Assembly (NCBI GenBank): GCA_951406725.2
Contig: OX597836.1
Coordinates: forward strand, 28,582,001 to 28,646,000
Direction: 5' to 3'
Length of the DNA stretch: 64,000 nt
Origin: Octopus vulgaris
Taxonomy: Eukaryota
Shown here: positions 9,801-61,717 of the stretch, piece after piece
Layout: the number at the start of each line of letters is the position of its first letter
How positions within the stretch are numbered: position 1 is the first letter of the stretch
Made by a program: the position numbers and the translations under genes
The notes under the pieces: model-generated
What the model was told of the DNA's origin: nothing
Database searches by the model: none
The model's input: only the letters and a program-made list of their open reading frames with translations

Positions 9801-12800
9801 CAAAAACTAGTTAAAAGGCTTTGCGAAGACAAACTACCAGAAACAGGTTTTGGTTACGAAATCACTGAAAATAAAAATCGCTGAAAACTTATAACGTCGA
9901 ATCGGTTTTTTTTTTACCTGTTTTTTGGTTTGGTTTGGAACAATGCTGCTCATCACTGCCGTCTTGGCAATGCCATATTCTGTCACACTTTAAGTAGGAT
10001 TCAATACATTGACCATTAACACACTGGAACTGATGCCAGTTGCATTTACCTGGGAGAAAGCAGGGAAAAATAAAAAAAAAACAAGTAGGTTTAGAAGCTG
10101 ATGTGGTGGTGGCGTTGGTAGAGAGGGTGGTAGTGTTGGCGGTGGAAGTGTAGCTATGGTCGGGATAACCATGTTGATTTCAATGGTTGTAACATGTGCG
10201 AAATTTTATGAAAGATGTGTGTGTGTGTTTCCAGGTATATATATTTTAATTAATGTTCGTCCTTCGGTTCGAAGATGACCAACTGACATCATCTGATGGA
10301 ACTGCCGCCATGAGACCGGAGATGGCTGGTGAGGCCAATCCGGGCAAGGAAGCCCCTCCCACAGGTGGGGCAGAAGTGGGTAGGGGCAGTGCTACTGGTG
10401 CAGGCGGCTCTGACTTTACGCATCTGACGTTTCTGCTCCGCTGACCGAATCCGTCCCTCCTCGGCTGTCCCTGCTCCCACGGTGATTGCGCTGCGCCAGG
10501 ATGAGCGGTTGGCAGCAAGTGTCTCCCAGGTCTCTGTTCCGATGGAGAAGTCTTTGAGAGAGACCTTGAGACTATCCTTGTAGCGCTTTTTCTGCCCTCC
10601 GACTTTGCGCCTACCCTGGCCGAGTTCACCGTAGAAGAGCTGTTTTGGGATGCGAGTGTCGGACATGCGGGAGACGTGGCCCGCCCATCTCAGCTGGGCC
10701 TTGCGCATGATTGTGATGGTGCTAGGGAGATCTGCCTGCTTCAGAACTTCCGTGTCTGGGACTTTGTCCTGCCAGCGGATGTGAAGGAGATTCCGAAGAC
10801 ACCTGAGATGGAAGTGGTTTATATATATATATATAGTGACGTATTTTTGCCATTTCAATATGGCTAACCCCTAAGGGTGGATGCTACTGTAGTTTTTAGC
10901 CCCAGGAGGACACACTCCTCCAGCTGGCCATAGACACACTATCTGTGTCCTGTCAGTATTTGCAAAGGGAAGTCATCCTTCCCGTCTTCAACTTATGATA
11001 CACACGGACTCGAGTTTCGAGGTATTGACCTCTCGTCAGCGTGTGACAATCATAGTTGTCGCCGAGAATTAGATTTCCTTCACAAATACTTATACTTTTT
11101 CCAGCGTCCACTGTCGCTGATATTGAAAAAGTGAAATCAAACAATGATAAATATCAAAGTGAGTTATATACAGTAGCGGTAACACATCGTGAGTGTTAGT
11201 ATAAGTATTTGTGAAGGAAATCTAATTCTCGGCGACAACTATGATTGTCACACGCTGACGAGAGGTCAATACCTCGAAACTCGAGTCCGTGTGTATCATA
11301 AGTTGAAGACGGGAAGGATGACTTCCCTTTGCAAATACTGACAGGACACAGATAGTGTGTCTATGGCCAGCTGGAGGAGTGTGTCCTCCTGGGGCTAAAA
11401 ACTACAGTAGCATCCACCCTTAGGGGTTAGCCATATTGAAATGGCAAAAATACGTCACGATGTGTTACCGCTACTGTATATAACTCACTTTGATATTTAT
11501 CATTGTTATATATATATATATATATATAGTTAATCCAAACAAGAAAGCACAAAAAAACACAACAACGCGAGGACGTGGAACAAATATAGTATTATTGGAC
11601 GCTCAGGAAAGAAGGAAAGAAGGAGGGTTTAACGTTTCGAGCGGAGCTCTTCGTCGGAGCTCTTCGTCGGAAACATAGGAGAAAGAAAGATCCAGAGAAG
11701 GGAAGACAGAGAAAAAAATTGCCAACGGTACACACGAGGTCACACACACACACACACACACACACACACACACACACACACATATATATCGGTATGTATA
11801 TGTGTGTATTGGATTATTAAGCTTATTGAAGATAATGCAAGTGTGTGTTGTTCTTACCTGCTGGTACAGTAACTATTTCTTTACAGTACTGTTCGTCACT
11901 GCCATCTGAACACTGCTTGATTCGGTCACATTTTTGCTTCATGTCAATGCATTGTCCGTTATTGCAGCGATACTGGTTCCAGCGGCACAGACCTAAATAT
12001 TATACAACACAGGCGTTTGAAGCAAGACAGTAAAAGATGTTTATGAGATGTGAAAGAGAAATGTCTGCGTATTATGTTGACTTAAACAGGAAAAAATTGA
12101 CAGCTAAATTGGATGACATTCGATGTGTAGTTTACCTTCCGTTCTCTTATATGATTGGGAAAAATATTTCAATATTAACAGTTTGGAAATTGTAAACAAA
12201 AGGAGAACAAGAAAATAAATACACACATACACATATATACACACACTTACATATATGTTTATCCGTGTGAATGAAGTAAGGACAGGTTAACTTGGAATGG
12301 CTTAGAGTCGTACAGCATATAATAATAATGAAGTCAAACTAAATATTGATTTTTGAATGCATTTAATACATGTGTTTCAGATCATTATGCGAAATAGAAA
12401 CAAATAATCTCTTACGGAACATCTTCAGTTAAGTCATTTTAAAAATATAAATGTGACAGTAAAATTCATCATTTATATAGTTTGGGCTGGGATATATCAA
12501 CAGAAATCGGAAAAGGACGCAGTTAGAAAGCAGACAGTGTTTCTACGAAGGAAAGAAAATAGAGATAAACGGAGGTGTTTAGGAATAAGAACAGAGAAAA
12601 GAAAACGTCTGTTCAATCATTTATTTAGTCATCTTTTTATTTATCTATTAATTCATTTAGATGCCTCAAACTCTCCTCGCGATGGTCTGTTTGCAAACAG
12701 AAACGTCTTCCATGGATAAAGCTATGGAACTTCTTGACACCAAATATGATTGCCAACGCCTCTTTTTCTATCTGACTATAATTCTTTTCAGCTGGCTATG

Positions 12801-60671: not shown

Positions 60672-61717
60672 TAGCTGAGCAAATCGGTCCCAAGACTTAG
60701 TCTTTGTAAGCCTAGTACTTATACTGTCAGTCTCTTTTGCCAAACTGCTAAGTTATAGGGATGTAAACACAACAACATTGGTTGTCACATGACTGTGTGT
60801 GTGTGTGGGGGGGGGGGACAAACATAAACACACCAACACACACATATATATATATATATATATATATATATATATATATATATATATATATATATATAGT
60901 GTAGGAAGAAATGGAGCTGAATGAAGATTTAACAAAATTCCTTTTTATTATTTTCTACATATGTTTCAAAGGCTGCAAAGTCCCTAATTCGGATTGAATA
61001 AGGAGACCATTTTGCAGCCTTCTCTTCAGGAAAATCCAGGAACTTAATTCTCCAACAAAATGCACAGCAAGCTTTTCGACAAACGCTCACGAGGAGCCCA
61101 TGGGATAAATGGCACAAAAATATATAAAACTTCAAATTTCCACACTAAGGCATGGGTTTGAGACCCCATGGTCATAACCTCAACCGTGATTTTTCTGTTG
61201 TGATTTTTGCTACCCAGGTATCGGTTATCATTTGAATAATCCGTAACAAGTTAATTCATTTATCCATTTCAATAAATATAAGATCGGAAATCCACCTGAC
61301 AAATGTCATTTGAAGACATGAAACAATTGTAGTGGCGATTTATTTACTTTATATTAAAATTTTTTATGTATTGATTAAGTCTTTCCTTGTTTGATTTGCA
61401 AAATAGTGGTTTTGTCTCGAATTAATATTATATAATATTTTACTATAAAATTGGATTTAATCCTAAATCTGATTTTTTTCCCTGTAATTTTGGATTTATT
61501 CCCTAATATTTATTATTATTATATATATATATATATATATATATATATACACACGATAGACTTCTTTCAGTTTCCATCTACTAAATCCACTCACAAGGCT
61601 TTGGTCAGCCTGAAGCTATAGTAGAAGACACTTGCCCAAGGTGCCACACAGTGGGACTGAACCCAGAATCATGTGGTTGGTAAGCAAGTTACTTACCACT
61701 CAGCCATTTCTGTGCCT
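60672..61717 (-). mobile_element. SINE family A split at its internal (TA)n by a hammerhead-bearing insertion of about 650 bp
   Basis: SINE tail at 60672-60842 and head at 61552-61717; the insert has (TA)n on both sides. Confidence 0.7.
61292..61335 (+). ncRNA. Hammerhead ribozyme relic (G8>A)
   Basis: ccac-CTGACAA-atgtc(atttgaa)gacat-GAAA-C(aatt)G-TA-gtgg. Confidence 0.7.

What the first reader, a model, noticed from the sequence alone, without database searches (positions are those of the whole stretch)
10994..61335. About nine structurally diverse minimal hammerhead ribozymes scattered through one gene's introns
Seen: type I hammerhead cores (CUGANGA / GAAA / NUH with paired stems I and II) at 11240-11300(+), 10994-11054(-), 32744-32833(-), 40035-40160(-), 55262-55333(+) and 61292-61335(+). 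Weaker variants lie at 11627-11674(-), 12363-12432(-) and 25145-25180(+). Their primary sequences look unrelated, yet all have a tiny, mostly palindromic stem III (CUCGAG, CGAUCG, CAAUUG, CAGUUG), and most lie in short inserts next to (TA)n tracts. Established: Penelope-like elements carry minimal type I hammerheads whose palindromic stem III permits dimer formation. Inference: several families of PLE-derived or retrozyme-like non-coding elements target TA microsatellites in this genome, reaching roughly one motif per 7 kb. Five lie on the host gene's sense strand and would be present in the pre-mRNA.
Basis: partly seen in the sequence, partly recalled or inferred. Interest (0 to 1): 0.85.

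Follow-up and report, generated by a model that had tools for sequence, protein, structure and literature searches.

The report
Octopus hammerhead retrozymes riding Penelope elements
The hammerhead-ribozyme motifs in this octopus gene region belong to several families of small non-coding repeats, scattered through the genome and mostly ending in TA microsatellites, that were likely copied in by a Penelope-type retrotransposon; an intact young candidate for that driver is present in the same genome, so the idea can be tested.

Summary
They are not nine independent ribozymes. Two are identical arms of one inverted insertion, and five window copies are damaged or non-canonical. Eight motifs were searched genome-wide and fall in seven multi-copy families; the missed motif forms an eighth. 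Family A is a young 353-nt tandem non-LTR retrozyme. Its insertions end in (TA)n at two fixed sites about 46 nt apart, one of each in 21 of 21 independent inverted insertions. This is the Penelope 'tail' signature; families A2, D, E, F and an intact 1312-aa Penelope-like element show it too, family B does not. One event joins a retrozyme arm directly to a truncated arm of that element. Genome-wide density is about 1 intact-core motif per 43 kb (14 in 600 kb), not 1 per 7 kb. Cleavage is untested; two host-sense copies are predicted to be masked by their inverted arms. Verdict: known kind (non-LTR retrozymes, PLE hammerheads), new members, unusually direct evidence for PLE mobilisation. The scan noted a similar TA-targeted Penelope-type repeat in another genome (e1-7810660).

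The parts
10833..11507 (.). Family A inverted insertion: minus arm (monomer m174 back to m168 of the previous unit) and plus arm (m264 to m220), between two (TA)n tracts; 353-nt tandem retrozyme family
11240..11300 (+). Family A type I hammerhead, intact; predicted cleavage after 11287; antisense to the host gene
10994..11054 (-). Identical family A hammerhead, host-sense; predicted fully paired with the other arm in pre-mRNA
11527..11744 (-). Family H, about 207-nt dispersed element with a min-HHR-like motif (11627-11674; U4C, private 13-nt duplication); 3' end at (TA)n
12363..12432 (-). Family G, old degenerate hammerhead-like motif (copies about 75-80% identical)
25096..25270 (+). Family I element with a non-canonical min-HHR-like motif (25145-25180); 7 related hits in the 600-kb sample; not searched genome-wide
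32713..33315 (.). Family B inverted insertion; intact hammerhead at 32744-32833(-) with 63-nt stem/loop II, about 185 nt upstream of a MAM-exon acceptor; partly masked by its inverted arm
39470..40208 (-). Family C element (motif 40035-40160, A.A mismatch at the base of stem II, 99-nt stem/loop II), interrupted by a common ~400-nt repeat (about 39531-39922); 3' end at (TA)n 39437-39469
55093..55523 (+). Family D, one ~429-nt unit of a partially tandem retrozyme family; motif 55262-55333 with two departures from the family majority
60889..61275 (.).
61275..61519 (+). Family F element; motif 61292-61335 with private G8A core change; 3' end at (TA)n
37572..37955 (-). Fragment (RT thumb region) of a young Penelope-like element, 98% identical to intact 1312-aa copies elsewhere
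38400..39409 (-). Older Penelope-like fragment (GIY-YIG region, 66% to the young element) with a hammerhead-like motif in its presumed pLTR at about 38400-38445
10046..11853 (-). Host intron between two LDLa exons that holds A and H; spliced out in contigs of two runs

Best explanation
The motifs are parts of several multi-copy non-coding repeat families, including tandem retrozymes, that likely spread by borrowing the reverse transcriptase and endonuclease of Penelope-like elements (PLEs) to insert into (TA)n. Shown from sequence: multi-copy families; TA-abutting 3' ends; two fixed 3' end sites per family; inverted arms that use one site each; an intact PLE with the same end pattern; one retrozyme-PLE composite. 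Inferred: the PLE protein nicks both strands of a TA tract and primes two cDNAs, one from each internal start site of the RNA. The two 5'-truncated cDNAs join, often over short microhomology, to give the inverted insertions. Both arms and all units usually come from one template, a monomer circle or a uniform multimer. The hammerheads would cut multimeric transcripts to unit length, as dimers through the palindromic stem III or, for A, possibly as monomers, and host ligases would circularise them; this step rests on the literature and is untested here. The intronic copies are likely passengers, and several are damaged or masked.
For: Family A: 353-nt period and about 100% identity, 2317 first-look candidates with the best 40 scored. 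Of 38 places examined, 59 of 60 3' ends abut TA-rich sequence. All 22 inverted places (21 independent) pair an m165-174 end with an m216-220 end (p about 5e-7 if ends were independent and equally likely), and 14 of 16 non-inverted places end at m174. The same one-of-each pattern holds in E 12 of 12, F 8 of 8 (short end 111-136), D 5 of 5 clear cases, A2 11 of 12 and the PLE 6 of 6 with both ends visible. Frangieh 2024 (PMC11167929) showed in vitro that a PLE cuts and extends both strands of AT-rich DNA from two internal RNA start sites that define the genomic tail. [quoted passage not shown] Composite: TA, then an A2 retrozyme arm ending at its short site, a 4-nt microhomology, a 5'-truncated PLE arm ending at its long site, then TA. 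It occurs three times on C28 (shared flanks shown for one pair) and as a rearranged derivative on C2. Two segregating family-A sites are uniform within 30 of 31 and 19 of 20 multi-unit insertions, across both arms. One run guessed to be RNA holds a 383-nt contig equal to the closed 353-nt cycle plus 30 nt.
Against: No cleavage or circular RNA shown. No listed run is on record as RNA, and a closed contig also arises from tandem transcripts or DNA. The composite is one event and could be a later deletion between neighbours. Family B breaks the rule, with both arms ending at about the same site in 3 of 3 other inverted loci, and H shows one end only. B, C, E and H showed no same-strand tandem motif among 20, 12, 23 and 27 counted, and F only a 1130-nt spacing in one locus, so they fail the tandem definition of retrozymes and may be truncated PLE ends. 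No family has sequence similarity to the young PLE's pLTR, and no shared start-site motif was evident. Tails are 46-149 nt, longer than the 30-40 bp in print. L001 and L023 carry unlike units, so a monomer circle cannot be the only template. Loci were the best-scoring hits, biased to young intact copies; for E and F the query selected the long-ended arm.
Confidence: 0.82

Rival explanations
1. All motifs are just 3' ends (pLTRs) of heavily 5'-truncated autonomous PLEs, not independent non-autonomous RNAs.
For: PLE pLTRs carry type I hammerheads and most occur as single motifs (PMC4209133). B, C, E and H show no tandem copies and F none at unit spacing. H and I match the min-HHR pattern. The window holds a true PLE fragment with such a motif.
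Against: A, A2 and D are head-to-tail units of 353, 359 and about 429 nt; the longest ATG ORF in A and A2 is 38-39 aa. tblastn with the PLE protein hit only 3 of 230 loci, one of them the window's own neighbour fragment. Only one PLE protein was used as query. This rival remains open for B, C, E, F, G, H and I but not for A, A2 or D.
Confidence: 0.1
2. The intronic hammerheads are host-co-opted regulators that cut this gene's pre-mRNA.
For: Six motifs lie on the host-sense strand, three with intact cores (A-, B, E); B is about 185 nt from an acceptor.
Against: The families are young, multi-copy and dispersed; window copies of F, D and H carry damaging or private changes. Sense A and B are predicted to be masked by inverted arms. 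Each sense copy is single, so no cis dimer partner. The A/H intron is spliced. Conservation in other species was not testable.
Confidence: 0.03
3. The tandem units spread by DNA-level routes (satellite amplification, rolling-circle or foldback transposition) or by a LINE, without PLE proteins.
For: Tandem and inverted structures can arise at DNA level; LINE fragments are present in the window.
Against: Family A arrays are short (about 1-5 units), dispersed and 5'-variable but 3'-fixed at two internal sites shared in pattern with the PLE; no poly(A) tails or fixed terminal inverted repeats were seen. Fold-back copying does not explain a short arm stopping exactly at m174.
Confidence: 0.04
4. 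Chance matches in AT-rich, microsatellite-rich DNA.
For: The relaxed descriptor yields 3-9 hits per shuffled 600 kb; G and I are weak on their own.
Against: Strict and medium counts exceed every shuffle; the motifs are conserved across family copies; the unimposed palindrome appears in 27 of 34 clusters against 5.2 expected.
Confidence: 0.01

Closest known systems
Animal non-LTR retrozymes (Cervera and de la Pena 2020, PMC7229834; Li, Clavereau and Pollet 2026 preprint 10.64898/2026.07.22.740005)
   Same: Non-coding 150-450-bp tandem units, GC under 50%, one type I hammerhead per unit; mussel units are about 350-390 bp; PLEs proposed as the mobilising partner.
   Different: Not described for cephalopods in my searches. 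The text I read argues the PLE link from shared ribozyme type, co-occurrence and pLTR homology. Here the link is an integration signature and a composite insertion, with no pLTR homology to the candidate driver. Five of the families are not tandem, and several have 43-99-nt stem/loop II inserts.
Hammerheads in PLE pseudo-LTRs, min-HHR (Cervera and de la Pena 2014, PMC4209133)
   Same: Type I, palindromic helix III, many heterogeneous families per genome, dual motifs 100-700 bp apart on opposite strands, mostly single; H and I have the bulged base before stem II.
   Different: A, B, D, E and F have a 2-bp helix III plus loop and are canonical-like rather than minimal; none was tied to an ORF.
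EN+ PLE integration pattern: inverted arms, optional 3' tail, (TA)n target (Craig 2021 PMC8557442; Arkhipova 2013 PMC3846280; Frangieh 2024 PMC11167929)
   Same: Tail on one end of an inverted insertion, microhomology joins, AT-rich target, two internal RT start sites.
   Different: Seen here on non-coding elements, as a near-strict one-of-each rule over dozens of loci, with tails of 46-149 nt; one insertion has arms from two different elements.
Neptune-type C-terminal EN+ PLEs
   Same: RT followed by a CX2-5CxxC linker and a GIY-YIG-like domain with two internal Cys and His residues; (TA)n target.
   Different: 128 residues between RT motifs A and B and a 32%-Asn insert; pLTR motif with A9C; no phylogeny run, so clade not assigned.

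Membership tests
Type I hammerhead ribozyme | Conserved core with three helices, open at helix I | tested here: met
   Strict descriptor met by A+, A-, B, E; A scores 32.2 bits on RF00163, gathering 34. Not met by the window copies of F, G, H, I; C and D need a mismatch at the base of stem II.
Type I hammerhead ribozyme | Site-specific self-cleavage | not testable with these tools
   Needs in vitro assay; contigs cannot show RNA ends.
Animal non-LTR retrozyme | Head-to-tail units of about 150-450 bp, one hammerhead each (families A, A2, D) | tested here: met
   353, 359 and about 429 nt; D mostly partial tandems.
Animal non-LTR retrozyme | Head-to-tail units (families B, C, E, F, H) | tested here: not met
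   No unit-length same-strand spacing among 20, 12, 23, 26 and 27 motifs counted in fetched loci; small, biased sample; G and I not tested.
Animal non-LTR retrozyme | Non-coding, GC under 50% | tested here: met
   A 42.5% GC, longest ATG ORF 38 aa; A2 49.3%, 39 aa.
Animal non-LTR retrozyme | Expressed as linear and circular monomer RNA | tested here: inconclusive
   Closed 353-nt cycle contig in 1 of 4 runs laid, run type only guessed to be RNA.
Animal non-LTR retrozyme | No LTR, PBS or PPT | not tested
   No LTR-like ends seen; PBS and PPT not searched.
PLE-type insertion | Fixed 3' ends with optional tail, 5' truncation, inverted arm, (TA)n target | tested here: met
   A, A2, D, E, F; not met for B; one end only for H; not assessed for C, G, I.
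PLE pLTR derivative | Sequence homology to the pLTR of an autonomous PLE | tested here: inconclusive
   No similarity to the one PLE family recovered; other PLE families of the genome not examined.
EN+ PLE (1312-aa element) | Single ORF with RT and C-terminal GIY-YIG, pLTR in partial tandem or inverted form | tested here: met
   Motifs read from sequence; Atlas neighbours at 0.96-0.97 carry HTH_animal, RVT_1, GIY-YIG; structure. Pfam scan gave no hit.
Neptune clade | Placement in RT phylogeny | not tested
   Linker motif fits; no reference set was on hand.

The most novel reading that the evidence does not exclude
An intact young Penelope-like element in this octopus genome mobilises unrelated hammerhead retrozyme RNAs in trans by twin priming. 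One RT starts at the upstream site and another at the downstream site, one on each nicked strand of a (TA)n target, and occasionally on two different RNAs, as recorded by a retrozyme-PLE composite insertion. This would name the enzyme behind animal retrozyme spread and give an in vivo rule for PLE inverted insertions, in a genome holding about 65,000 (36,000-110,000) intact-core hammerhead motifs in dozens of families.
Probability: 0.5. Interest if true: 0.75.

Novelty: new member of a known kind. Interest (0 to 1): 0.55.

Why it matters
Which machinery moves animal retrozymes is stated as unresolved in the papers read (PMC7229834 Discussion; 2026 preprint), and how PLEs make inverted insertions is called an open task (PMC8557442). 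This genome offers a matched pair for a bench test: a near-identical young retrozyme family with mapped start sites and an intact PLE ORF that leaves the same ends and is found fused to a sister retrozyme. It also suggests that octopus carries a very large, diverse hammerhead set (about 23 per Mb by my descriptor, extrapolated from 14 hits), much of it missed by Rfam because of long stem II inserts; the main text of a 2026 octopus repeat annotation never mentions ribozymes. The enrichment in this one gene region is probably not of special meaning.

Tried and rejected
The whole-window Rfam scan was swamped by microsatellite-driven miRNA hits (62 lower rows not shown); the repeat finder likewise. 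Rfam found a hammerhead only for A (the 25-kb motif was covered only). Pfam gave nothing for the PLE fragment or full ORF and the PDB sequence search nothing meaningful. No shared sequence or fold motif at the RT start sites across families. No homology of any family to the young PLE. No RNA holder was listed as RNA on record, which is no evidence either way. The read-laying covered only 9800-12150, so splicing around B-G and single-gene continuity over the whole window stay unshown. A search for further independent composites in 18 more A2 places found only a derivative of the same event; three other places had PLE pieces nearby but separated by TA or kilobases. Motif-to-TA distance was rejected as a test because TA tracts are too dense. 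Single-motif MFE folds mostly did not give the active core, as expected for weak stem III; not used as evidence. A-to-G differences in contigs were not read as editing, since family variants explain them. Within-family covariation is uninformative because copies are too young; between relatives, F and an 82%-identical family swap one palindromic stem III for another. Supplements of the cited papers were not opened; they may list octopus motifs or PLEs.
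Full report
Setting. The window lies on a 2.8-Gb animal genome. The nearest named proteins are from Octopus (74% to an O. bimaculoides protease; 98% to an O. vulgaris hypothetical protein). Minus-strand exons for LDLa, SRCR, trypsin and MAM domains run through it. 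One 545-aa protein maps over the exons from 47.9 to 31.0 kb, and contigs of 2 of 4 runs splice 10045 to 11854. One gene across the whole window is likely but not shown.

Observation. All nine strings are present. A descriptor scan gave 4 strict, 6 medium and 7 relaxed hits against shuffle means of at most 0.02, 0.05 and 0.52, never reached in 200 shuffles. It added an intact motif at 60950-61035(-). The motifs at 11240(+) and 10994(-) are identical arms of one insertion. Family alignments show that the window copy of F has a private G8A, D has two departures from the family majority, C has a family-wide A.A mismatch, G is old and H has U4C plus a private duplication. In 1.63 Mb of fetched sequence (biased, partly redundant) 376 hits formed 37 clusters. 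Of the 34 with stem III of 6 nt or more, 27 are fully self-pairing (19 Watson-Crick) against 5.2 (2.2) expected. An evenly placed 600-kb sample gave 14 medium hits against 0-1 in ten shuffles: 1 per 43 kb, extrapolating to about 65,000 (36,000-110,000). The window is about four times richer (p about 0.004, ignoring clustering and selection). A separate pattern for H/I-type motifs matched 18 times in the sample and twice in the window, without shuffle control.

Families. Genome searches (best 40 scored each) returned first-look candidates of 2317 (A), 751 (B), 808 (C), 1861 (D), 2974 (E region), 2275 (F), 227 (G) and 2404 (H); these are not copy numbers. The families share no alignable sequence except A with a sister family A2 (68% over 171 nt). 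A is a 353-nt, 42.5% GC, non-coding unit in arrays of about 1-5; A2 is 359 nt; D about 429 nt. B, C, E, F and H showed no unit-length tandem.

Integration signature. In 38 family-A places, 59 of 60 3' ends abut TA-rich DNA and fall at about m174 or m217-220 after the cleavage site, not at the cleavage site itself. All 22 inverted places (21 independent) use one of each; 14 of 16 non-inverted places use m174, one m217, one m274. Inversion joints mostly overlap by a few bases or have small gaps. The same pattern holds for E (12 of 12), F (8 of 8), D (5 of 5 clear; one complex locus left out) and A2 (11 of 12, one ambiguous), with tails of 46-149 nt. B does not follow it (3 of 3 other inverted loci end at about one site) and H shows a single end. 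This matches the PLE 'tail' on one end of inverted insertions (PMC3846280, passages; PMC8557442, passages and section 11). It also matches the two internal RT start sites and two-strand cleavage shown in vitro (PMC11167929, main text).

Candidate driver. A 138-aa fragment at 37551-37967 retrieved 150 scored matches at 92-100% identity, many in long open frames. Full copies encode 1310-1312 aa with RT motifs, a CX4CXXC linker and a GIY-YIG-like C-terminus. They end in (TA)n at two sites about 60 nt apart, one of each in 6 of 6 inverted copies with both ends visible, and carry a hammerhead-like pLTR motif with A9C. Three of the 12 loci returned (all on C28) hold a composite: an A2 arm ending at its short site, a 4-nt microhomology without TA, and a 5'-truncated PLE arm ending at its long site. 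The three share the same junction, and shared flanks were seen for the one pair visible before the output was cut. A C2 locus carries the same junction rearranged. I count one event. A later deletion between two neighbours is the alternative; one A2 and PLE pair sharing a TA tract tail to tail shows such neighbours exist.

Template. Two segregating sites in A are uniform within 30 of 31 and 19 of 20 multi-unit insertions, including across arms, so arms usually share a template or source. L001 and L023 have unlike units, so multimeric templates also occur. A 383-nt contig in one run closes the 353-nt cycle; the run is only guessed to be RNA, and a tandem gives the same contig.

Mechanism. Shown: families, ends, inversions, composite. 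Inferred: twin priming by PLE RT/EN on nicked (TA)n. From the literature: hammerhead processing of multimers and circularisation (PMC7229834, passages and Discussion), dimer use through palindromic helix III and low min-HHR activity (PMC4209133, results and discussion). Cleavage was not needed for PLE insertion in vitro (PMC11167929), and only 1 of 9 Xenopus dimers cleaved (2026 preprint, parts 1-3 of 5), so activity here should not be assumed. Stem III self-duplexes compute to -6.4 to -11.1 kcal/mol for intact family forms but -3.2 and -3.4 for the window copies of D and C. In host pre-mRNA the sense A and B motifs are predicted to be masked by their inverted arms; E and C are not.

Novelty. 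Non-LTR retrozymes, PLE hammerheads, TA targeting and the tail are in print. Searches for hammerhead with octopus or cephalopod, for retrozyme chimeras or twin priming and for tail or inverted non-autonomous PLEs showed no report on cephalopod retrozymes or on retrozyme-PLE composites among the listed titles and the papers read. An octopus repeat annotation lists recent Penelope-like insertions and has no occurrence of 'ribozyme' in its main text (PMC13282606, passages). Subscription papers and supplements were not seen. A paper on dimer-cleaving PLE hammerhead variants (Lunse 2017) is recalled, not read. The scan had no notes on this genome and one related note on another genome, found after my reading was set. 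Verdict: new members of a known kind, with an added, testable mechanistic link; interest 0.55.

Noticed in passing
L243:2942-6880 (G000 C15); window fragment 37572-37955: Young, abundant PLE with a 1312-aa ORF, a 32%-Asn insert and 128 residues between RT motifs A and B despite a C-terminal endonuclease; IFD-like inserts are described mainly for N-terminal EN+ PLEs. About 110 unnamed relatives at 22-50% identity; clade unplaced.
   Followed up: partly
L251:3728-6655; L252; L253; L279: Composite of a 359-nt retrozyme (A2) arm and a truncated PLE arm, present three times on C28 and once, rearranged, on C2.
   Followed up: yes
window 38400-38445 (-): An eleventh hammerhead-like motif, in the presumed pLTR of an old PLE fragment; it has A9 where the young PLE has C.
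   Followed up: partly
window 11527-11744 and family H: About 207-nt element with TA or TG repeats at both ends; 12 hits in 600 kb and the highest summed contig depth in all four runs laid (depth is no expression measure); a possible SINE-like solo pLTR.
   Followed up: partly
L009, L013, L101, L280, L036, L290 flanks: Further hammerhead families with long palindromic stem III of 8-14 nt; 37 clusters in all.
   Followed up: no
window 10833-11507 and 32713-33315: Inverted insertions would form long double-stranded RNA in pre-mRNA (about 260 bp for A), a possible substrate for RNA editing or small RNAs; untested.
   Followed up: no
window 0.7-60.4 kb (-): Mosaic protease exons (LDLa, SRCR, trypsin, MAM, more LDLa); the O. 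bimaculoides model covers only 47.9-31.0 kb, so a longer gene or neighbouring genes may be unannotated.
   Followed up: partly
window 10289-10822 (-); 12796-13236 (-); 15279-15755 (-): A LINE-like C-terminal ORF fragment (label recalled, no Pfam hit) next to the A insertion, and RT/RNase H fragments of LTR type.
   Followed up: no
window 28247-28939: A 690-bp (TA)-rich microsatellite, the longest in the window.
   Followed up: no
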